From a virus (taxonomy: Duplodnaviria > Heunggongvirae > Uroviricota > Caudoviricetes): a stretch of DNA of 64,000 bases. Within the stretch, counting starts at the first letter, position 1; each line of letters starts with the position of its first letter. Both the position numbers and the translations under genes were made by a program. The stretch lies in IMG/VR virus record IMGVR_UViG_2713896898_000005. One strand, given 5' to 3'. The notes beneath the pieces were generated by a model. The model ran no database searches, was not told the origin of the DNA, and was given only the letters and a program-made list of their open reading frames with translations. Of the stretch, positions 29,273 through 37,579 are shown piece after piece.

Positions 29273-30170
29273 GCACTGGAAAAACATTACTATTTATAAA
29301 CTTTCTCGTGAGGCGGATCTGACCGACTTAGAAGATAAAACGAAAATGATCCTTTTCACGCCATGCGGTAGTCAGGATATGGCCAAGTTCGGTTTTGTAT
29401 CGCCATTTGGTGATAATTCCGAAGTTATCGCTATGCATGGAAATGGTTTTATCCTTGTTGAAGCAAAGCGCGAAACAAAAATTCTTCCCCCGCCGGTTAT
29501 CCAGCGAGCTATTCAAGAAAAAATTGAAAAAATTGAGCAAGAACAAGCGCGTAAACTGAAGAAAACAGAGAAGGACTCCCTGAAAGACGAAGTTCTGCAT
29601 TCTCTTCTGCCACGGGCTTTTTCAAAGTTTTCTGTTATCCAGGCGATCTACGACGGTTCAACTAAACGTATCTATATCAATGCCAGCGCGCGGCAGGCAG
29701 AGGATATGCTCGCGCTTATGCGTAAATCTCTGGGTTCTCTTCCTGTTGTTCCCCTAAGTGTTGAAAATCCCATTGAATTAACGCTGACCGACTGGGTACG
29801 TGATGGTAGTGCTCCACAGGGATTTCAAATGGGGGATGCGGCAGAACTTAAGGCAGTGCTTGAGGATGGCGGTATTGCCCGAGTGAAAAAGCAGGATTTG
29901 GGAAGCGATGAAATTTCCACACACCTGGAAGCTGGCAAGCTCGTCACTAAGTTGGCACTCGACTGGCAGAACCGCATTAAATTTACACTGGACCATAACT
30001 TCAGCCTTACCAGCGTCAAATTTGCGGATGAATTGCTTGAGCAGAACTCTGATATTGATAGTGAAGATGTTGCGCAGCGACTGGACGCAGATTTCTTCCT
30101 GTTGACCAGTGAAATTTCGTGCCTGGTTGATGCTCTGGTAAATGCCCTTGGTGGAGAGGCTAAGCAGTGA
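29265..30170 (+). CDS. hrdC: RdgC-like recombination-associated protein
   Basis: From internal Met [13 protein letters not shown]...; close to E. coli RdgC throughout ([11 protein letters not shown]..., [12 protein letters not shown]...). Confidence 0.9.
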
Positions 30171-33100
30171 AAGAGCTGTGCTATGGATCTGTTTGCAGTG
30201 GAATTGAAGCCGCGAGTATTGCCTGGGAACCGTTGGGTATGCGTCCGGCGTGGTTTGCTGAAATCGAGTCTTTTCCATCGGCCGTTCTTGCGCACCGCTG
30301 GCCCCATGTCGCCAACCTTGACGACATGACTAAACTTGCCAAAAAAGTCCTGGCTGGGGAAATCGAATCCCCTGACGTGCTCGTCGGGGGAACACCATGT
30401 TTTACCGCGGGGCATATGGTTCTTTGTAAAAATGGTTATAAACCAATAGAAGATGTTTGCCCTGGCGATTACGTAGTCAGTCATCTCGGGCGGTTACAAC
30501 AAGTAAAAAGAGTTGGTTCAAAAATAGCTAATACGGGGTTACTTAATGCCGTTGGGCAGCCTTTAGGTATAAGAACAACCAATGACCATCCCTTCCTGGC
30601 TGTTCGGTGGAAAGCCCAAAACACCCGGAAAAATGGCACATATTTTAAGAGAGAGTTGTTGTCTGAACCGGAATGGCGAGCAGCATGTGATATGCCAGGA
30701 TATCAATGGTGCGCTCTAACTAATTTCAATATTGCATCTCCAGATATTTGTTCTCGGTTCTTGTCTGAAGAACAGGCTATATATCTTGCGGGCGCTTATG
30801 TTGGCGATGGATATATTAGGAGATGGAGAGGTAAATCTAAGAAGGCGGTTGTTTTTGGCATAAATTGCCAGAAATTGAGAAAGTTTCATTGTCGCATACC
30901 AGAAAACATATTTTCCGTGGCAAGAGAAATCCGAGGGAGCATCAAAGTAACCTTGAATGATACGTGTTATGCCAATTGGCTTAATGAACATTTTGGCGAG
31001 TTAAGCCATGCTAAGCGTATCCCTGCATGGGTGATGTCGCATCCATTGCGTCATGTGTTTTTACAAGGCTATCTTGATACTGATGGGACACCAAGTGGTA
31101 AAGCGGGATTTAGAATTAATAGTGTTAGTCCTGCGCTTGCTTGGGGCGTTGCGGGGGTGTCACAGACTTGTGGTTATGTTTCTTCGGTCAGCTTTATTGA
31201 AGTTGAGCCCAAAAAAGTGATCGAGGATCGCGTGGTAAATCAACGGAATTATTATCAGGTAACAATCTGCCCGCAGAAATTGTCACGTAAATCAAGATTG
31301 GCTCATGGAATGCTTTTACGAACAGTCAAAGAGTTTAAATCGGTAGGCCTAGATACTGTATACAACATAGAAGTCGAAGGTGATCATTCCTATATTCTCA
31401 ATGGTGCGGTGGTCCATAACTGTCAGGCATTCAGTATCGCGGGATTACGTGGTGGGCTTGATGATGAGCGTGGCGCGCTAACTTTAAAGTATGTGGAGCT
31501 TGCAAATGCAATTGACGACAAACGGGCTGAGTCATTTCTCAAACCAGCCGTTATCGTCTGGGAAAATGTCCCAGGAGTCTTGTCATCGGCAGATAACGCC
31601 TTCGGATGTTTCCTTGCCGGATTGGCTGGAGAAGATGCGCCATTTGAACCAGGTGATCGACCTGAATCAGGAAAAAGTAACGCGTTCTGGCGGTGGGATG
31701 GCAAAACCGGTTGCCATGCTCCAAAGTGGCCGCAGTGTGGTTGTATTTATGGACCGCAGCGAAAGGTGGCCTGGAGAATCCTTGATGCCCAATACTTCGG
31801 AGTGGCACAACGACGCCGACGCGTGTTTGTTGTCGCAAGTGCTCGAACAGACCTCGATCCCGCAACGGTACTTTTTGAGTTCGAAGGCGTGCGCCGGAAT
31901 ATTGCGCCGAGCCGAAAAAAGAAGGAAATCGCTTCCGCCATTATTGCAAATGGCGCTGCAATCAGTGGCGAAAGCCTAAATTCATGCCTACACGCTGACA
32001 TTACCCCCGGTATGAAATCGACGAAAGCCGTAAACGCTTTCAGGATGGCGGCATTTGGGGAATATATTGGCGATGAAACCGCATCGACAGTAAAGGCGAG
32101 AGACTTTAAAGATGCCACTGACCTTGCAGTTTTTAGCAGCACAGGAGCAGGTTTTTGGTCAGAAGGGCATGGTACATTGCGGGCACGTGAGCAAGAAAGC
32201 CATGAGCATCTTGTTACATTGGCTTTTCCTGAGCGTATGAGCGGTACACAACATGCTGCAACTAAGAATACTTCACCATCTTTAATGGCCAAAAATACAA
32301 CAGCCGTTTGCTATGACGTAGGAAACGCAGCAGTAGCTGTCCGCCGTCTTACCCCTGTCGAATGTGAAAGACTGCAAGGTTTTCCTGATGGGCATACGTT
32401 GATCCCGACGGAAAAGCGTAAAAAAGTTACTTCAGATGAACTGGCATACCTTCGCAATCACTATCCAGATTTAAGCGAAGAAGAGGCCGCGATGCTTGCA
32501 GCTGACGGACCGCGTTACAAAGCGATCGGCAATAGCATGGCGATACCAGTAATGCGATGGATTGGTGAGCGGATTATTAAGGCTGCATATCAGCAGGCAA
32601 AAAATCATGAAGCAACAGAACGGAGAGTTAAGCTAACGGCAGAATTTGACCGTCCCATATTTAAATGGGTCGGCGGAAAATTTGGTGTTCTTGAACAAAT
32701 CTTTAGGCATTTACCTGACGGAAAGCGCCTGATCGAGCCTTTCGTTGGTGGCGGAGCTGTCTTCATAAATGCCGGATATCAAGAAAATCTGCTAAATGAT
32801 GTGAATGCTGACCTGATTAACTTTTACAGGACTCTGCAACGTGAGGGACATTCACTTATCACTCTGGCGCATCGGTTTTTCCAGGACTACAACACACAGG
32901 AAGGATACCTGGCAGTACGGAATGCGTTTAACAAACAAGCCTATGATGATTTACATCGTGCAGCAGCGTTTTTGTTCCTGAACCGACATTGTTTTAACGG
33001 ATTGACGCGTTACAACCAGGCCGGTGAGTTTAATGTTGGTTATGGGAAGTATAAAACTCCGTATTTCCCATTACAGGAGATGGAAGCCTTCCTCGGTGCT

Positions 33101-33454
33101 GAAGGGCGTTCTGAGTTTGTATGTGGTGATTTTTCAGCGGTGATTGAAGCTGCCGGAGAAGGAGATGTCATCTTTTGCGATCCTCCGTATGAACCGCTCC
33201 CCAATACAGAGGGGTTCACAAACTATTCCGGTCATGACTTTAAGTTTGAAGAGCAAAAACGCCTGGTATCTCTGCTAATGGATGCTCATCGCCGAGGTGC
33301 AAAGATCCTCATTACTAATAGTGGTGCGCCAAACATCAGGGAGCTTTACCAAGACAGTGGCTTCAGAGTGGAACCTCTTTTTGCCAGACGTTCTGTGTCT
33401 TGTAAGGGGAACACTCGTGGTGTAGCTCATGACGTTATTGCTATATTGCTCTAA
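30167..33454 (+). CDS. dmt: Dmt bifunctional DNA methyltransferase (Dcm-like C5 domain plus Dam-like N6 domain), intein-containing precursor
   Basis: C5-MTase motifs SVCSGIE (I), [12 protein letters not shown] (IV, interrupted), VIVWENVPG (VI); Dam motifs EPFVGGGAV and DPPYEP; 1095 aa = about 754 aa + 341-aa insertion. Confidence 0.9.
30398..31420 (+). mobile_element. Intein with LAGLIDADG homing-endonuclease domain, inside dmt
   Basis: Starts with Cys (CFTAGHMVL), ends VVHN followed by Cys +1; block B TNDH; LAGLIDADG-like [11 protein letters not shown] and [10 protein letters not shown]; excision restores [12 protein letters not shown]. Confidence 0.85.
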
Positions 33455-33461
33455 TAAATTT
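33445..33461 (+). promoter_or_regulatory. C1 operator (perfect consensus) overlapping the dmt stop codon
   Basis: ATTGCTCTAATAAATTT 17/17, followed by TAATAT -10-like hexamer. Confidence 0.75.
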
Positions 33462-33642
33462 ATTAGTGTAATATGGTTTCAATGAATCGTGATTTATAGA
33501 GCGATTTAGCTGTTAGCCGCGACAGGCGCGGCGGCAAGTATGGCGGGGTAGTGACTCCTTCCCCCTCATGACGCCGAGTTGCCAGGTTGACCATACGCCT
33601 AAGTGGCAATACCGAAATGCGTAACGAGCTTACATCCTGTTT

Positions 33643-33667
33643 GCCCATCTTCGGGTGGGCGTTTTTT
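33643..33667 (+). terminator. Rho-independent terminator with UUCG-type loop
   Basis: GCCCATC-TTCG-GGTGGGC followed by TTTTTT. Confidence 0.6.
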
Positions 33668-33848
33668 CAGGGTTTTCGTCATGGTTAGCGACTTTGCGGC
33701 GGTTTAGAAACTGACCATTAAAGTAAATGCAAACGATGATCTGATGATGGCTGCGGCCTAAGAAGCCAGACGCCACGGGGTATGAGTCGTCCCCCGTCAA
33801 AAAATCGACCGCAGAGTGTCCCCGTCTGTGTATTAGGGAACGGGGAGG

Positions 33849-33927
33849 CACAACAGGTAAGGGCGCTGGTGTGATTAACCAGATGAACGAGAAGGGGCCA
33901 TCTGTTGGTCAGCGTCCTTTCCTGTTG
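33849..33927 (+). repeat. tRNA-like structured repeat unit A
   Basis: CACAACAGGTAAGGGCG pairs with CGTCCTTTCCTGTTG around a roughly 50-nt core; leader and trailer boxes shared with units B-D. Confidence 0.4.
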
Positions 33928-34132
33928 CGTCTTCTTTTCAGCGTAACAGCGGTGCTTAACAGCACTTTGGGTACAGTTCCACGAATTTACGGGTATATCC
34001 CGTCATGCTGAAAGCGCTAATCACGCTGGAAGCCAGGGTTATGCATCCCCTGTTACCGAATTGCAGCCAGGGCGCGGTGCGCCGAAAAGCATACGGAGGT
34101 GGAAGCCCTCGCCGGAGACGTACCCGGCAAGT

Positions 34133-34208
34133 GATGGTGTAGCTCAGCGGTTAGAGCAGTTGGCTGTTAACTAACTGGTCGGTGGTTCGAATCCACCCAC
34201 CATCGCCA
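34133..34208 (+). tRNA. tRNA-Asn (anticodon GTT)
   Basis: 76-nt cloverleaf: acceptor GATGGTG/CACCATC, anticodon loop CTGTTAA, T-arm GGTGG-TTCGAAT-CCACC, 3' GCCA. Confidence 0.85.
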
Positions 34209-34210
34209 AT

Positions 34211-34343
34211 GCCGGTTTAGCTCAGTGGGAGAGCACGAGAGCCAAAGCATCGTTTCTACTTCGGTAGACAGCCTTGCTGGTCAAATGACAACGATTCGAT
34301 GTTAGGCCAGAGGTCAGCGGTTCGAATCCGTTAACCGGCACCA
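34211..34343 (+). ncRNA. 133-nt tRNA-like RNA gene (tRNA ends with a structured internal insertion)
   Basis: Perfect acceptor stem GCCGGTT/AACCGGC with ACCA 3' end, D-arm GCTC..GAGC and T-arm; interior replaced by about 57 extra nt including a UUCG-capped hairpin; no canonical anticodon arm. Confidence 0.45.
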
Positions 34344-34344
34344 G

Positions 34345-34431
34345 CACAACAGGTAAGGGTATTTTGCGACGTCGGAGATCGCCGAGCTTGGCAGAGGGTT
34401 CGAATCCCTCCGAAGTACCCTTACCGTTGTG
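34345..34431 (+). repeat. tRNA-like structured repeat unit B
   Basis: 16-bp imperfect outer stem CACAACAGGTAAGGGTA / TACCCTTACCGTTGTG around a T-arm-like hairpin GAGGG-TTCGAAT-CCCTC. Confidence 0.4.
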
Positions 34432-34557
34432 ATGAATGCGCAGGCTGATGCGCGAAAGACATTGCAGCTATTGCGGAAAAGAGCTGTCCGGCGGGGCAAT
34501 TAAACGCCCGTGAGAGTCTGAAATAACCGCAAGCCGGAGATCAGCACCGGTCATCAC

Positions 34558-34646
34558 AACACAACAGGTAAGAGCATTTGTAGAGTTCGACTCTCTACCG
34601 TGGGCTTTTTCCCGCGATGCGAGACGTGAATGCTCTTTCCGTTGTG
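34558..34646 (+). repeat. tRNA-like structured repeat unit C
   Basis: Outer stem ACAACAGGTAAGAGCATT / AATGCTCTTTCCGTTGTG around the T-arm-like hairpin GTAGAG-TTCGACT-CTCTAC. Confidence 0.4.
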
Positions 34647-34799
34647 GTGAATGCGCGTTGCTGGCGCGCAAGTCCGCCCTATGGCAACGAGGCGGCGTAG
34701 TAAATATCGATGCCTCAGTCATCAAGCGCACTGACCGGCCTTATGGGCTATGAAAAAAAGAGGCGCAGTCGGAGATCAGCACCGACCACCACAATCATT

Positions 34800-34886
34800 G
34801 GAGAGTAGGGAGTATGGCGCTCAAGCGGTCTTGAAAACCGTCCCATTGCGCAAGCGATGATGGTTCGATTCCATTACTCTCCACCA
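34800..34886 (+). tRNA. Type II tRNA, probably tRNA-Ser (anticodon TGA), with atypical D-arm
   Basis: Acceptor GGAGAGT/ACTCTCC plus ACCA; anticodon arm GCGGT-CTTGAAA-ACCGT matches E. coli tRNA-Ser(UGA); long variable arm; T-arm GATGG-TTCGATT-CCATT. Confidence 0.5.
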
Positions 34887-34896
34887 GCGCAACGTT

Positions 34897-34990
34897 AAGA
34901 GTATTTGGCTAATTAAGCGAATGCCGGAAGCAGAACCGGATCACCAAATGCGTACAGGCGTCATCGCCGCCCAGCCAGCCAAGTGCTCTT
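34897..34990 (+). repeat. tRNA-like structured repeat unit D
   Basis: Outer stem AAGAGTATTTGGCT / AGCCAAGTGCTCTT followed by the same conserved trailer box as units B and C. Confidence 0.35.
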
Positions 34991-35107
34991 ACCATTGCGG
35001 TGAATTCGGCTAAGCGCACGCGGAACAGTTAAAACAATCCTCCTTGATGATTAAACATTCCGGCGTTAATTGTTAACTGGTTAACGTCACCGGGAGGCAC
35101 CCGGCAC

Positions 35108-35124
35108 CGCAATCTAATAAATAT
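35108..35124 (+). promoter_or_regulatory. C1 operator-like site upstream of tciA
   Basis: CGCAATCTAATAAATAT keeps the TCTAATAAAT core. Confidence 0.4.
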
Positions 35125-35148
35125 GTCACTTTTATTGAGGGATAACCA

Positions 35149-35583
35149 ATGTTCGGTAAATTGTTCGGCAAGAAAGTCGCTTCTGCAAAAGTAGAGCTGA
35201 AAAAAGTTGAGAATCGCGATCTGATGGAGGCCATTATCGGTGGCTGTTTGTTGGTGTCTGCCGCTGATGGTGAAATCAAAAAAGAAGAAACAGCGAAACT
35301 TGATCAGCTTATCCGCTCTAATCCGCGTCTTAGTCATTTTGGTAACGAAATTACCGCAACAATTACCCGCTTTACCGAGCAACTGGAAGCTGGCTTCCGT
35401 GTTGGTCGCATGAATATCCTTCGCGAAATTGAAGATATCAAAAACGACCCAAAAGAAGCGGAAGAAGTATTCGTTAACATGCTGACGATTGCAGAAGCGG
35501 ACGGTGAAATCGAGCCAGCAGAACACAAAGTACTGGAAGAAGTAGGCCGTCGTTTAGGTCTTCGTGTGGAAGATTATCTGTAA
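35149..35583 (+). CDS. tciA: TerB-like protein
   Basis: 144-aa ORF; TerB-like helical pattern; followed by two tiny membrane ORFs and tRNA-Ile as in P1 tciABC. Confidence 0.75.
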   Translation: MFGKLFGKKVASAKVELKKVENRDLMEAIIGGCLLVSAADGEIKKEETAKLDQLIRSNPRLSHFGNEITATITRFTEQLEAGFRVGRMNILREIEDIKNDPKEAEEVFVNMLTIAEADGEIEPAEHKVLEEVGRRLGLRVEDYL

Positions 35584-35747
35584 TGGCAAGCAAGGCACGT
35601 ATCGCAATCGCCATTGGTTTTCTCTTGCTGTCCGTGCTGGTGGATTTCACCAGCACAATCCTGTCAGTTTTATCGGACGGGGCGTTGGTGGCAGTGGCTG
35701 TAACATTGGTATGGCCGATATTTAAAACAGCTTCGAAGGATCAGTGA
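35583..35747 (+). CDS. tciB: Small membrane protein
   Basis: 54-aa hydrophobic ORF; start overlaps the tciA stop (TAATG). Confidence 0.55.
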   Translation: MASKARIAIAIGFLLLSVLVDFTSTILSVLSDGALVAVAVTLVWPIFKTASKDQ

Positions 35748-35854
35748 TGGGCTTCTGGGATTTTGCTGACAAGTATCCAATTGTTCTCATTATCATTGTT
35801 GCCATAGTTGTAGGCGGCGTTGTTAGCGCCATTGAAGCACTTAGGAAACAGTAA
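35747..35854 (+). CDS. tciC: Small membrane protein
   Basis: 35-aa hydrophobic ORF; start overlaps the tciB stop. Confidence 0.5.
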   Translation: MGFWDFADKYPIVLIIIVAIVVGGVVSAIEALRKQ

Positions 35855-35857
35855 TCC

Positions 35858-35933
35858 GGCCCTTTAGCTCAGTGGTTAGAGCTGGCGACTCATAATCGCA
35901 CGGTCACCGGTTCAAGTCCGGTAGGGGTCACCA
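35858..35933 (+). tRNA. tRNA-Ile2 (anticodon CAT, lysidine type)
   Basis: 76 nt; anticodon arm GGCGACTCATAATCGC and D-arm match E. coli ileX; 3' ACCA. Confidence 0.85.
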
Positions 35934-36208
35934 CATTTGGTTGTAACACGGCGTCTGGCACATGCGTCGTTAGCGGTCTGGTGACGTTAAAGGGGTTACC
36001 TTTTCCCCTAGCTCAGGCAACAAACCAGGTAGCCGGAATGTGCAAGCCCCGTTCATAGCGTCGGACTGCGGATTCACCATCCTGGCGATTCGGTGTGACA
36101 GCCGGGAAGAGTCCGGCGCATTAATCCTGATTTTCTGGTGATGACTCATATCGTTAGGAGTGATTTGAGTATGCCGATTATATCTGACATTCAGCACACC
36201 AGGGTGGA

Positions 36209-37579
36209 GTGTTAATGTCTGCATCCCCTCTTGAATCCATGCCAAATTCCCTTAGTGCAGAACAAGCTGTGCTTGGTGGCTTAATGCTTGATAACTGCCG
36301 CTGGGATGAAGTTGCAGATCGTATAGTTGCTGATGATTTTTATACCAGTGCTCATCGTGAAATTTTCAGTGAGATGGAGAGGTTATTAAGTCATGGCAAA
36401 CCGATTGATTTGATAACACTTGCTGAAGCACTTGAACAGAACGGTAAATTAGAACGCGCCGGTGGTTTTGCGTACCTTGCGGAGATGTCAAAGAACACGC
36501 CCAGCGCGGCAAATATTTGTGCTTATGCGGATATCGTTCGTGAACGTGCGGTTGTTCGTGAAATGATTTCCGTCGCAAATGAAATAGCCGAAGCTGGATA
36601 TGCGCAGGATGGCCGGAGCAGCAATGAATTGCTGGATATGGCCGAGCGCCGCGTTTTTGAAATAGCTGAAAAACGACAAAAGAGCGGTAGTGGTCCAAAA
36701 GATATCGCCAGCATTCTCGATGCAACGGTATCTCGCATAGAAGAGTTGTTTCAGCGACCGCATGATGGTGTAACGGGGCTTGATACCGGATTTACCGATC
36801 TCAATAAGAAGACGGCAGGGCTTCAGCCATCCGATCTCATTATTGTCGCCGCCCGCCCATCTATGGGAAAGACTACGTTTGCGATGAATCTTGTCGAAAA
36901 TGCCGCAGTCCGTAGCGATAAGCCTGTATTGGTTTTTAGCCTTGAGATGCCAAGCCACCAGCTGATGATGCGCTCACTGGCCTCTCTTGCACGTGTTGAT
37001 CAGACTCGTATTAGAACGGGGCAACTTAACGACGAGGATTGGGCGCGTGTTTCTGGTGCAATGGGGATTCTGTTGGACAAGCAGAATATTTTTATTGATG
37101 ACTCAAGCGCCCTGACACCTACAGAGCTTCGTTCCCGTGCTCGTCGTGTTTATAAAGAAAATGGCGGATTGAGCATGATCATGATCGACTACCTGCAACT
37201 TATGCGCGTCCCCGAGCTGCAAGACAACCGAACGCTGGAAATTGCCGAGATTTCTCGCTCACTTAAGGCGTTGGCGAAGGAATTACAGGTGCCGGTGGTG
37301 GCATTGTCACAACTTAATCGCTCGCTTGAACAGCGTGCGGACAAACGACCGGTAAATTCAGATTTGCGTGAATCTGGAGCAATTGAACAGGACGCAGACC
37401 TGATCATGTTTCTGTATCGCGACGAGGTTTATCACCCGGATAGCGAAATGAAGGGCATTGCCGAGGTGATTATTGGTAAGCAACGAAATGGCCCGATTGG
37501 CACGGTGAGATTGGCTTTTAACGGCCAGTATTCACGATTTGATAACTATGCTGGTGCTGACTGGCAAGAGGATTATTAA
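36209..37579 (+). CDS. ban: Ban, DnaB-family replicative helicase
   Basis: 456-aa ORF; Walker A ARPSMGKTTFAMN; DnaB C-terminal motifs. Confidence 0.9.
   Translation: MLMSASPLESMPNSLSAEQAVLGGLMLDNCRWDEVADRIVADDFYTSAHREIFSEMERLLSHGKPIDLITLAEALEQNGKLERAGGFAYLAEMSKNTPSAANICAYADIVRERAVVREMISVANEIAEAGYAQDGRSSNELLDMAERRVFEIAEKRQKSGSGPKDIASILDATVSRIEELFQRPHDGVTGLDTGFTDLNKKTAGLQPSDLIIVAARPSMGKTTFAMNLVENAAVRSDKPVLVFSLEMPSHQLMMRSLASLARVDQTRIRTGQLNDEDWARVSGAMGILLDKQNIFIDDSSALTPTELRSRARRVYKENGGLSMIMIDYLQLMRVPELQDNRTLEIAEISRSLKALAKELQVPVVALSQLNRSLEQRADKRPVNSDLRESGAIEQDADLIMFLYRDEVYHPDSEMKGIAEVIIGKQRNGPIGTVRLAFNGQYSRFDNYAGADWQEDY

What the first reader, a model, noticed from the sequence alone, without database searches (positions are those of the whole stretch)
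33445..33667. Candidate C1-repressed small transcript between dmt and the tRNA cluster
A perfect 17/17 C1 operator overlaps the dmt stop codon, is followed by a TAATAT -10-like hexamer, then about 170 nt without a convincing ORF, and ends at a strong intrinsic terminator (GCCCATC-TTCG-GGTGGGC plus T6). This is the architecture of a repressor-controlled sRNA or leader peptide unit and lies just upstream of the tRNA-like array.
Basis: inference. Interest (0 to 1): 0.45.

Follow-up and report, generated by a model that had tools for sequence, protein, structure and literature searches.

The report
P1 ban-operon leader with DicF-type RNA
This stretch is the already-known repressor-controlled start of phage P1's ban operon. 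Its first ~190 transcribed bases form a conserved, folded RNA related to the precursor of the E. coli small RNA DicF and end at a strong terminator, so a small RNA is plausible but it is an operon leader, not a separate gene.

Summary
A perfect 17/17 C1 operator (33445-33461) overlaps the dmt stop codon. A TAATAT -10 follows (33469-33474), then ~170 nt with no conserved ORF, then a strong intrinsic terminator (33643-33667).

It is not an orphan unit. It is the annotated bipartite operator Op72 (Oban a/b) and promoter P1ban of the P1/P7 ban operon, and the P1 GenBank record already labels the stretch "dicF-like region".

New here:
- The transcribed stretch is a ~125-nt RNA module (33508-33630) with four helices and a pseudoknot, supported by covariation and absent from Rfam.
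- Its core is ~82% identical to the sequence just upstream of DicF in Qin-type prophages. 4,425 of 5,426 E. coli genomes hold a match to the query.
- In lambdoid prophages the module precedes DicF or at least six other terminator-ended RNAs. In P1-type phages only 12 nt and the terminator follow.

Best reading: this is a C1-controlled operon leader. Early termination would give a ~185-nt structured RNA, a DicF-type cassette with minimal cargo. Read-through continues into a tmRNA-like RNA, tRNAs and ban. It is not a DicF family member and has no leader peptide. No transcript, termination or module function was tested.

Next door (33670-33867) lies a widespread phage tmRNA-like RNA with a 10-codon tag frame and no detectable tRNA-like domain.

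The parts
33445..33461 (+). C1 operator half-site a (Op72a / Oban-a), 17/17 match to ATTGCTCTAATAAATTT. Overlaps the dmt stop codon at 33452-33454.
   Evidence: annotated as such in P1 AF234172 and P7 AF503408
33456..33472 (-). C1 operator half-site b (Op72b / Oban-b), 15/17. It overlaps site a by 6 bp in inverted orientation, giving a bivalent operator.
   Evidence: P1/P7 annotation
33446..33474 (+). Sigma-70 promoter P1ban: -35 TTGCTC (33446-33451), 17-bp spacer, -10 TAATAT (33469-33474). Both hexamers lie inside the operator. The predicted transcription start is about 33481.
   Evidence: Sequence; P1 record annotation 'sigma 70 promoter P1ban'. The start site is inferred from spacing and was not mapped here.
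33484..33507 (+). 5'-proximal hairpin of the leader (GAAUCGU / GCGAUUU). Found only in P1-type copies and invariant among 31 P1-type variants.
   Evidence: MFE fold; variant list. It does not vary, so there is no covariation evidence.
33508..33630 (+). Conserved structured RNA module. P0: AGCUGUUA 33508-33515 with UAACgAGCU 33622-33630. H1: 33517-33521 with 33527-33531. H2: 33545-33548 with 33561-33564. H3: 33576-33584 with 33604-33612. Pseudoknot: GUAUGG 33538-33543 with CCAUAC 33591-33596, which lies in the H3 loop.
   Evidence: Homology to the pre-DicF region of Qin. Per-helix variant tables. Covariation counts. The covariance model finds one copy in the window, at 89.9 bits. No Rfam family matches.
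33631..33642 (+). Short linker UACAUCCUGUUU, predicted to be unpaired, between the module and the terminator. This is the only candidate 'seed'. It differs here from all 30 other P1-type variants, which have UCCAGUUU.
33643..33667 (+). Intrinsic terminator: a 7-bp stem with a cUUCGg tetraloop (-14 kcal/mol), then G and T6. It sits where DicF and other sRNA hairpins sit in lambdoid prophages.
   Evidence: Conserved in 31 P1-type variants with T-tracts of 6-8, and in the divergent L216 with changes that keep pairing (GCCCACC / GGUGGGU). Also present in D6, which has no module.
33670..33867 (+). Next unit in the same transcription unit: a tmRNA-like RNA. It has a 10-codon tag frame with no start codon (GCA...GCC, 33729-33758, ANDDLMMAAA) and stop TAA at 33759-33761 inside a hairpin, followed by two pseudoknots. 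No tRNA-like domain was found.

Best explanation
The interval is the control region and 5' leader of the P1-type ban operon.

Control region. In the lysogen, C1 (encoded at 60112-60963) would bind the bivalent operator Op72, which covers both promoter hexamers of P1ban, and keep the unit silent.

Leader. When C1 is lost, RNA polymerase should start near 33481 and first transcribe a DicF-type cassette. This has three parts:
- a 5' hairpin;
- a ~125-nt module of four helices (P0, H1, H2, H3) locked by a 6-bp pseudoknot, homologous to the conserved element that precedes DicF and other small RNAs in Qin-type lambdoid prophages;
- after only 12 nt, a strong intrinsic terminator at the position where those prophages carry the sRNA.

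Inferred outcome. A large share of transcripts would end at 33667, giving a ~185-nt structured RNA. The rest would read through into a tmRNA-like RNA, tRNA genes, tciABC and ban. On this reading the terminator acts both as the 3' end of a small RNA and as an attenuator or punctuation mark of an operon whose first 1.5 kb is all RNA genes.

Role of the module. I propose it is the conserved folding and processing platform of the cassette. Its P0/H3 stack and elbow-like pseudoknot give it a cloverleaf-like topology. In K-12 the RNase E-made 5' end of DicF lies 16 nt after P0.

Shown versus inferred. Shown here: the operator, the promoter hexamers, the homology, the RNA fold (by covariation) and the terminator features. 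Taken from the P1 record annotation: that these are Op72 and P1ban and that they control ban. Inferred and not tested: the transcription start, actual termination, accumulation of the small RNA, and what the module does.
For: Identity of the control region:
- 95.6% identity to P7 and 93.8% to P1 across dmt and the tRNA region.
- P1 and P7 records annotate Obana/Obanb (former Op72ab, 'controls expression of ban'), promoters P1ban and P2ban, and a 'dicF-like region' at the corresponding positions.
- The operator statistics are far above chance, and c1 is present in the window.

Homology:
- Window 33517-33609 matches, at ~82% identity, the stretch that ends 30 nt upstream of mature DicF in K-12 Qin. 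The search found a match in 4,425 of 5,426 E. coli genomes and in many lambdoid phages.
- The module also occurs in Citrobacter, Trabulsiella, Serratia, Erwinia and Izhakiella.

Structure:
- H2 stems swap completely between copies (CGGGG/CCCCG, CUGGGG/CUCCAG, CAGGUG/CACCUG, CUGGG/CCCAG).
- H3 shows UGUCA/UGACA changing to UGCCA/UGGCA and, in Izhakiella, GGGUAACCA/UGGUUACCC.
- The pseudoknot shows GUAUGG/CCAUAC changing to GCAUGG/CCAUGC in P1, with the U-G wobble intermediate found in other isolates.
- In alignment A9, 92.9% of cells are paired against 32-49% when the partners are slid, and 13 pairs have changes on both sides against 5.8 +/- 1.5 in shuffles (0 of 500). Alignment A5 gives the same picture.

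Cassette logic:
- The module is followed by DicF or by at least six other hairpin-plus-U-tract RNAs. Rfam calls only one of the seven variants tested DicF.
- DicF is known to arise by early Rho-independent termination plus RNase E cleavage (PMC9438474, PMC5069750).

Terminator.

No coding potential.
Against: - No expression data were available. The transcription start, termination efficiency and RNA accumulation are all inferred.
- The minimum-free-energy fold of the 187-nt RNA is not unusually stable (z = -0.82).
- The ban operon is known from the P1 record to be driven from this promoter, so the terminator cannot be absolute. Nothing here says what fraction of transcripts terminates.
- Phage D6 keeps the terminator and the tmRNA-like unit but lacks the module. 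The module is therefore dispensable for whatever the hairpin does there, and the hairpin may belong functionally to the downstream unit.
- Two lambdoid variants (L014, L058) lack the 5' strand of P0.
- The proposed processing role rests on topology and on the DicF precedent only.
Confidence: 0.65

Rival explanations
1. A free-standing, trans-acting, Hfq-dependent base-pairing sRNA (a functional DicF analogue) under C1 control. After RNase E cleavage, the 3' end (linker plus terminator hairpin) would pair with host or phage mRNAs.
For: - It sits where DicF sits relative to the conserved module.
- The terminator hairpin followed by six or more U is the usual Hfq-binding 3' module.
- DicF itself is released this way (PMC9438474).
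- Different prophages carry different cargo RNAs at this site, suggesting a slot for regulators.
Against: - There is no similarity to DicF: no RF00039 match was listed even at E up to 10.
- Only ~12 nt remain unpaired between P0 and the terminator.
- Those 12 nt differ (a 4-nt indel plus substitutions) between this window and all 30 other P1-type variants, which argues against a conserved seed.
- No target search was possible genome-wide.
Confidence: 0.2
2. The module is a cis-acting processive antiterminator RNA that works like HK022 put. It would modify RNA polymerase so that it reads through the hairpin terminator and later terminators into the tRNAs and ban (or into dicB in Qin).
For: - The module always lies a short distance upstream of an intrinsic terminator that downstream genes must pass.
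- In P1 it is promoter-proximal, as putL is (PMC9378689).
Against: - There is no sequence similarity to HK022 putL or putR, and the covariance model finds nothing in the HK022 early region.
- The architecture differs: four helices plus a pseudoknot against two stem-loops.
- In Qin the module lies ~750 nt from the promoter, after three ORFs.
- The Rho-independent 3' end of DicF shows that termination does occur downstream of the module (PMC5069750).
- D6 manages without the module.
Confidence: 0.12
3. The hairpin is simply the terminator or insulator that stops transcription coming out of dmt. The sequence between operator and hairpin would be spacer with no function of its own.
For: - The hairpin is the first terminator-like site after the dmt stop codon.
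- dmt has its own upstream promoters in the P7 record, so an insulator before a repressor-controlled operon would make sense.
Against: - The 'spacer' is a covarying structured RNA conserved across Enterobacterales prophages.
- The module-plus-terminator unit occurs without dmt or the operator upstream and after another terminator-like hairpin (L216).
- The promoter lies upstream of the hairpin, so the hairpin also acts on P1ban transcripts.
Confidence: 0.08
4. Leader-peptide attenuation: translation of a short ORF in the leader would control formation of the terminator.
For: A 5-codon ORF (AUG 33482, MNRDL, stop) lies at the very 5' end and is present in P1 and P7 as well.
Against: - No longer ORF is conserved in any frame.
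- The mini-ORF ends 140 nt before the terminator.
- I saw no alternative pairing that competes with the terminator. I looked for one only by eye; this was not a tool result.
- Lambdoid copies of the module have no equivalent ORF.
Confidence: 0.02

Closest known systems
Op72 (Oban a/b) operator and P1ban/P2ban promoters of the bacteriophage P1/P7 ban operon
   Same: Same sequence, same bivalent arrangement and same position at the dmt stop codon upstream of tRNA-Asn, tciABC and ban. This is the same element in a P7-like relative.
   Different: Three bases just after the -10 differ: GGTT here, CGCC in P1 and P7. dmt upstream carries an intein here.
DicF cassette of the Qin prophage ydfABC-dicF-dicB operon (sRNA made by early Rho-independent termination plus RNase E cleavage)
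   Same: - The conserved module upstream of the sRNA is homologous (~82% identity) and has the same fold.
- A terminator hairpin follows inside an operon whose downstream genes need read-through.
- Downstream, the dicB-leader homologue STnc100 is also present in the window at 34996-35111.
   Different: - The sRNA part is not DicF: no RF00039 match.
- It is reduced to 12 nt plus a short hairpin.
- The unit is promoter-proximal and C1-controlled, rather than in the 3' UTR of ydfC under DicA/DicC.
- P0 has a different sequence.
StxS: an sRNA made by promoter-proximal termination of the Stx phage PR' transcript (PMC7547250)
   Same: A phage promoter is followed closely by an intrinsic terminator, so the short terminated leader is itself an RNA product, while read-through expresses the operon.
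   Different: As described in that paper's abstract, PR' is constitutive and read-through depends on antitermination. Here the promoter is repressed in the lysogen and no antiterminator is known. There is no sequence relation, and StxS was not compared with this sequence by any tool.
HK022 put RNAs (cis-acting antiterminator RNAs)
   Same: A structured RNA at the start of a phage early operon, upstream of terminators.
   Different: No sequence or structural similarity was found. put has two stem-loops of about 70 nt; this module has four helices and a pseudoknot over about 125 nt.

Membership tests
P1 C1-controlled operator / P1ban promoter (Op72) | 17-bp asymmetric operator matching ATTGCTCTAATAAATTT | tested here: met
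   17/17 at 33445-33461. The window has 15 sites with 3 or fewer mismatches against 0.32 expected.
P1 C1-controlled operator / P1ban promoter (Op72) | Bivalent arrangement (two overlapping inverted half-sites) covering the promoter hexamers, at the dmt 3' end upstream of the tRNAs and ban | tested here: met
   The second site is at 33456-33472 on the - strand. Position and flanks are collinear with the P1 and P7 annotation.
P1 C1-controlled operator / P1ban promoter (Op72) | Repression by C1 protein and transcription initiation at P1ban | not testable with these tools
   The c1 gene is present in the window. Binding and the start site are taken from the P1 record annotation.
DicF sRNA (Rfam RF00039) | Match to the DicF covariance model (sequence plus hairpin) | tested here: not met
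   No RF00039 hit at E up to 1 over 4 kb or E up to 10 over 261 nt. The same model scores 76.7 bits on K-12.
DicF sRNA (Rfam RF00039) | Location downstream of the conserved pre-DicF element, ending at a Rho-independent terminator inside an operon | tested here: met
DicF sRNA (Rfam RF00039) | Base pairing with ftsZ, xylR or pykA mRNAs; Hfq dependence | not tested
   No shared sequence with the DicF pairing regions. No target search was done.
Intrinsic (Rho-independent) terminator | G+C-rich hairpin immediately followed by a U-tract | tested here: met
   7-8 bp stem, UUCG loop, -14 kcal/mol, T6. Conserved with T-tracts of 6-8 and pairing-preserving changes in relatives.
Intrinsic (Rho-independent) terminator | Actual transcript release at the U-tract | not testable with these tools
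   Needs Term-seq, Northern blotting or in vitro transcription.
HK022 put antiterminator RNA | Similarity to putL/putR (two stem-loops, conserved residues) | tested here: not met
   No significant blastn-short match (best E = 0.11, an 11-nt exact match) and no hit of model R1 in the HK022 early region.
HK022 put antiterminator RNA | Terminator read-through conferred in cis | not testable with these tools
   Needs reporter or in vitro assays.
Leader-peptide attenuator | Conserved short ORF whose translation is coupled to alternative terminator/antiterminator pairing | tested here: not met
   No ORF keeps its frame between the window, P1 and P7, apart from a 5-codon ORF 140 nt upstream of the terminator.
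tmRNA (for the neighbouring element 33670-33867) | Tag reading frame without start codon, ending in hydrophobic-Ala-Ala, with the stop codon in a hairpin, flanked by pseudoknots | tested here: met
   A 10-codon frame in all 125 copies. Covariation supports the stop hairpin and two pseudoknots.
tmRNA (for the neighbouring element 33670-33867) | Alanine-accepting tRNA-like domain (acceptor stem with G3-U70, T-arm, CCA end) | tested here: not met
   ARAGORN finds no tmRNA in the window or in 102 related loci. Rfam tmRNA models score below their gathering thresholds and match only the tag region.

The most novel reading that the evidence does not exclude
The ~125-nt module would be an undescribed class of structured RNA. 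It has a cloverleaf-like four-helix junction, with an 'elbow' formed by a 6-bp pseudoknot. It would serve enterobacterial prophages as a portable launch pad for exchangeable small RNAs: DicF, at least six other cargos, and the bare terminator in P1. It would work either by directing precise RNase cleavage or by modulating read-through of the cargo's terminator. In P1-type phages this device has been placed directly under C1 control, at the head of an operon of RNA genes: the module RNA, a tmRNA-like RNA that lacks a tRNA-like domain, and tRNA and tRNA-like genes. Derepression would then release a burst of non-coding RNAs before the ban helicase is made.
Probability: 0.3. Interest if true: 0.65.

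Novelty: new variant of a known kind. Interest (0 to 1): 0.42.

Why it matters
The operator and promoter are textbook P1 biology, and that part is ordinary.

Two things would interest RNA and phage biologists.

1. DicF, one of the oldest known bacterial sRNAs, sits behind a conserved, covarying, pseudoknotted RNA element that is not in Rfam. A match to it was found in about four of five complete E. coli genomes, and it precedes several different cargo RNAs. P1 offers a clean, repressor-switchable version with almost no cargo. That makes the function of the element (processing guide, stabiliser or read-through device) directly testable.

2. The ban operon must read through a strong terminator about 185 nt from its start. 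This is an unexplained feature of how P1 controls its helicase and tRNA genes.

Tried and rejected
- Rfam, at E-value thresholds, over 32500-36500 and 33440-33700: no family fits the leader. The weak RefB11, Ysr49, CcsR1 and AgvB hits only reflect hairpins and the terminator.
- put-like antiterminator idea: I located HK022 putL and putR from the HK022 sequence and PMC9378689 and compared them. There was no similarity by blastn-short or by my covariance model.
- Thermodynamic stability as evidence: the z-score of the 187-nt RNA is -0.82 on the + strand and -0.53 for the complement. This is uninformative, so I relied on covariation instead.
- Protein-coding readings: the 61-aa minus-strand ORF (annotated 'hypothetical protein' in some phage records) and the + strand ORFs that cross the terminator are not conserved in frame.
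- Plain MAFFT alignment misaligned H2 and the P1-type P0. My first regular expression for parsing helices failed and was rewritten. Alignments fitted to a covariance model were used for the pair counts, so those counts lean towards the model's structure.
- Alternative pairing between the terminator arms and upstream or downstream motifs (a riboswitch-like switch, or closing helix with 33856-33867): by eye only 4-5 bp are possible, so I dropped it. This was not a tool result.
- Literature: no held paper describes an RNA from the P1 'dicF-like region'. The P1 genome paper (PMC523184) is not held.
- I did not run a genome-wide target prediction for the 3' tail. The tail is not conserved among P1-type phages, so a hit would not have been interpretable.
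Full report
WHAT THE WINDOW IS. The region around the finding is 95.6% identical to phage P7 and 93.8% to P1 over 33300-34250. The window also encodes the C1 repressor (60112-60963, - strand). The ORF at 62126-63157 begins with the sequence I recognise as Cre; that identification is from my own knowledge and was not checked with a tool. The window is a P1/P7-type phage (Punavirus).

CHECK OF THE OBSERVATION.
- The perfect operator ATTGCTCTAATAAATTT is at 33445-33461, across the dmt stop codon at 33452-33454.
- A second, inverted half-site lies at 33456-33472 with 2 mismatches.
- TAATAT is at 33469-33474, 17 bp after TTGCTC at 33446-33451.
- The terminator GCCCATC-TTCG-GGTGGGC-G-T6 is at 33643-33667 (-14 kcal/mol).
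- Operator-like sites are about 50 times more frequent in the window than in shuffles: 15 against 0.32.
- No ORF on either strand keeps its frame between this phage, P1 and P7.

IT IS A KNOWN CONTROL REGION.
- The P1 record (AF234172) annotates the corresponding positions as the 'divalent C1-controlled operator Obanab; corresponds to former Op72ab; controls expression of ban'.
- It also annotates 'sigma 70 promoter P1ban', a predicted P2ban, and, 100 nt further on, a 102-nt 'dicF-like region' that ends in the terminator.
- The P7 record annotates the same operator.
Its transcripts have to pass the terminator to reach tRNA-Asn (34133), the tciA homologue and ban (36209-37579).

WHAT 'dicF-like' REALLY MEANS.
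- Rfam finds no DicF here, nor any other family.
- Window 33517-33609 is ~82% identical to a chromosomal sequence. The search found a match in 4,425 of 5,426 complete E. coli genomes and in many lambdoid phages.
- In K-12 that sequence lies in the Qin prophage between ydfC and dicB and ends 30 nt upstream of mature DicF (L003 1501-1592; DicF at 1622-1673).
- The homology is therefore to the DicF precursor, not to DicF.
- In 90 or more viral contigs carrying the element, it is followed 16-45 nt later by DicF or by at least six other short RNAs, each ending in a hairpin and a U-tract. Of seven such variants, Rfam recognises only one as DicF.
- In P1-type phages the corresponding position holds just 12 nt and the terminator hairpin.
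- A second piece of the dicBF operon, the dicB leader (Rfam STnc100), is also present in the window upstream of the tciA homologue (34996-35111).

THE CONSERVED ELEMENT IS A STRUCTURED RNA. Sorting the variants by helix gives five paired elements.
- P0: GUUGUGGC pairs with GCUGCAAC, GCUACAAC or GCCACAAC, and GUUGUGGU with ACCACAAC. In P1 types the sequences are unrelated: AGCUGUUA with UAACgAGCU.
- H1: CCGCG with CGCGG. It is almost invariant, so it is uninformative.
- H2: whole-stem swaps between copies (CGGGG/CCCCG, CUGGGG/CUCCAG, CAGGUG/CACCUG, CAGGGG/CUCCUG, CUGGG/CCCAG in P1).
- H3: UGUCA/UGACA changes to UGCCA/UGGCA in P1 types, UUG/CAA to UCG/CAG, and in Izhakiella the helix is GGGUAACCA/UGGUUACCC.
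- Pseudoknot: between the H1-H2 linker and the H3 loop, GUAUGG with CCAUAC. It becomes GCAUGG with CCAUGC in P1, and the U-G wobble intermediate exists in other isolates.

A covariance model built on this structure finds exactly one copy in the window (33482-33659, 89.9 bits) and none in HK022. Pair counts support the structure:

| Alignment | Cells paired | Cells paired when partners are slid | Pairs changed on both sides | Same, in shuffles |
|---|---|---|---|---|
| 71 viral and P1 copies | 95.9% | 34-56% | 8 | 2.8 +/- 1.2 (1 of 500) |
| More diverse set incl. Citrobacter, Trabulsiella, Serratia, Erwinia, Izhakiella | 92.9% | 32-49% | 13 | 5.8 +/- 1.5 (0 of 500) |

Both alignments were fitted to the model, which biases them towards the structure. 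The raw per-type tables show the same swaps.

In the window the fold occupies 33508-33630. A P1-specific 5' hairpin (33484-33507) precedes it, and the linker UACAUCCUGUUU and the terminator follow. The MFE prediction reproduces P0, H1, H2 and the terminator, although its energy is not exceptional (z = -0.82).

HOW IT MOST LIKELY WORKS.
- Established for DicF: the sRNA is produced by early Rho-independent termination inside the operon, with RNase E making the 5' end. Read-through transcripts give dicB and an RNase III-made longer DicF (PMC9438474, PMC5069750).
- By homology of the module and identity of layout, I infer the same logic for P1. Once C1 leaves Op72, P1ban transcripts fold into the module. 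Many would stop at 33667, giving a ~185-nt RNA. The remainder would continue into the RNA genes and ban.
- The module has P0 stacked next to H3 (0-1 nt between their 3' strands). Its pseudoknot ties the post-H1 linker to the H3 loop. This is the topology of a cloverleaf with an elbow. In K-12 the RNase E-made 5' end of DicF lies 16 nt after P0.
- I therefore favour a role as the folding and processing platform of the cassette. This step is inference.
- A classical trans-acting seed is unlikely in P1 types. Only ~12 nt are unpaired, and those differ between this window and all 30 other P1-type variants examined.

RIVALS.
- A put-like cis-antiterminator would elegantly explain how ban is expressed through a strong terminator, but it has no sequence or structural support. 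It also conflicts with the documented termination at DicF.
- A mere dmt terminator or insulator does not explain the covarying module, nor the occurrence of module plus terminator without dmt or the operator (L216).
- A leader peptide is excluded by the lack of a conserved ORF.
- A caution for my own reading: phage D6 has the terminator hairpin and everything downstream but lacks the module, as a precise absence relative to L216. The hairpin may therefore belong as much to the downstream unit as to the module.

WHAT LIES DOWNSTREAM (outside the finding, same transcription unit).
- Extent: directly after the T-tract, 33670-33867 is ~71-73% identical to unannotated DNA of other phages. The search with 33668-34132 matched 331 phage records in all, hosted by Salmonella, Klebsiella, Escherichia, Serratia, Erwinia and others. 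They include virulent Ackermannviridae and G7C-like phages.
- Tag frame: it contains GCA AAC GAT GAT CTG ATG ATG GCT GCG GCC TAA (33729-33761). All 125 copies recovered have a 10-codon frame without a start codon. The peptides include ANDDLMMVAA, ANDDVVLMAA, ANEEMYLAVA and ANDEQFLAVA. From my own knowledge, the E. coli SsrA tag is ANDENYALAA.
- Fold: the stop codon sits in a hairpin, and two H-type pseudoknots follow. Covariation is strong: 167 cells changed on both sides against 66.7 +/- 7.5 in shuffles (0 of 500), and the outer stop-hairpin helix is paired in 100% of cells with GC/AU swaps in 26 and 21 sequences.
- Relation to ssrA: the 5' part aligns with E. coli ssrA around UUUGCG...GAAAC and the resume codon, but lacks pseudoknot 1.
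- Detection: ARAGORN finds no tmRNA in any copy. Rfam tmRNA models stay below threshold and match only the tag region.
- Closing helix: in non-P1 phages the unit is closed by a ~12-bp helix (AGUGCUCUUUCC with GGUAAGAGCAUU). In P1 types the 5' strand of that helix is replaced by the terminator hairpin of the finding.
- Prior record: a 2014 census of ssrA in RefSeq viruses lists only mycobacteriophages and Bacillus phage G (PMC4131195). I found no description of this element, but my literature access is limited.
- Further downstream come a 17-bp hairpin made of the same spacer motifs (33851-33927), tRNA-Asn, and a tRNA-Thr-derived gene with a ~57-nt insertion.

VERDICT.
It is a C1-controlled unit that probably yields a small terminated RNA, but it is the known Op72/P1ban leader of the ban operon and already carries a 'dicF-like' label.
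- It is not a member of the DicF family, although it works like a DicF cassette with minimal cargo.
- What is new is the recognition that the shared part is a widespread, covarying, pseudoknotted RNA module with exchangeable cargos.
- Interest is moderate. The more surprising object is the neighbouring tmRNA-like RNA, which deserves its own follow-up.

Noticed in passing
window 33670-33867 (tag frame 33729-33758, stop 33759-33761): A tmRNA-like RNA lies immediately downstream of the terminator. It has a 10-codon tag frame without a start codon (ANDDLMMAAA here; ANDDLMMVAA, ANDDVVLMAA, ANEEMYLAVA and others elsewhere), the stop codon in a hairpin, and two covarying pseudoknots. No tRNA-like domain is detectable by ARAGORN or Rfam. 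The search with 33668-34132 matched 331 phage records (including virulent Ackermannviridae and G7C-like phages), and the element's pattern hit 120 or more IMG/VR contigs. About half the copies lie upstream of tRNA clusters. It is not listed in the 2014 ssrA census (PMC4131195)..
   Followed up: partly
window 30167-33454 (insert about 30398-31420): Dmt is 1095 aa here, against about 754 aa as computed from the P1 CDS coordinates. A ~341-aa insertion splits the C5-methyltransferase GGTPC|QAFS motif. It starts with Cys, ends with His-Asn followed by Cys, and has Pfam Hint_2 and LAGLIDADG_3 hits. This is an intein with a homing-endonuclease domain at the catalytic PCQ motif.
   Followed up: partly
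window 34211-34343: At the position of P1 tRNA-Thr, the acceptor stem, the 5' side of the D-arm and the T-arm are retained. About 57 extra nucleotides replace or expand the anticodon-arm region. ARAGORN does not call it a tRNA, and Rfam gives only a weak YrlA-like hit (E = 0.36). It could be a tRNA-like or Y-RNA-like molecule, or a disrupted tRNA.
   Followed up: partly
window 33849-33867, 33910-33927, 34344-34363; also flanking the tmRNA-like unit in other phages: A repeated spacer motif CACAACAGGTAAGRGYRYT and its complement AGYGCTCTTTCC(TGTT) flank the RNA units. In other phages they form a closing helix around the tmRNA-like RNA. In P1 types they form a 17-bp hairpin (33851-33927), which Rfam mistakes for miRNA precursors. 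They look like processing stems between RNA genes.
   Followed up: partly
window 34996-35111: An Rfam STnc100 hit (50.3 bits, above the gathering score) lies upstream of the tciA (TerB-like) homologue. It is homologous to the leader of dicB in Qin. The ban operon therefore carries two separate pieces of a dicBF-type operon.
   Followed up: no
window 34800-34886 and about 34380-34420: A tRNA-Ser(UGA) lies where the P1 record annotates plp/upl on the opposite strand; D6 has the same tRNA. A further T-arm-like sequence, GAGGGTTCGAATCCCTC, near 34400 is not called by ARAGORN.
   Followed up: no
loci L017, L114, L044, L058, L090, L037 (lambdoid prophage contigs): At least six different short RNAs ending in a hairpin and U-tract occupy the DicF slot behind the conserved module, and Rfam does not recognise them as DicF. 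In L058 and L090 the cassette is followed within ~300 nt by isrK and C4-type RNAs on the same strand.
   Followed up: partly
L248 (phage D6) 690-730 compared with L216 1393-1549: D6 lacks the module precisely, while keeping the same upstream sequence, the terminator hairpin and the tmRNA-like unit. L216 has the module in that context without dmt or a C1 operator. The module therefore behaves as a discrete, insertable or deletable unit.
   Followed up: yes
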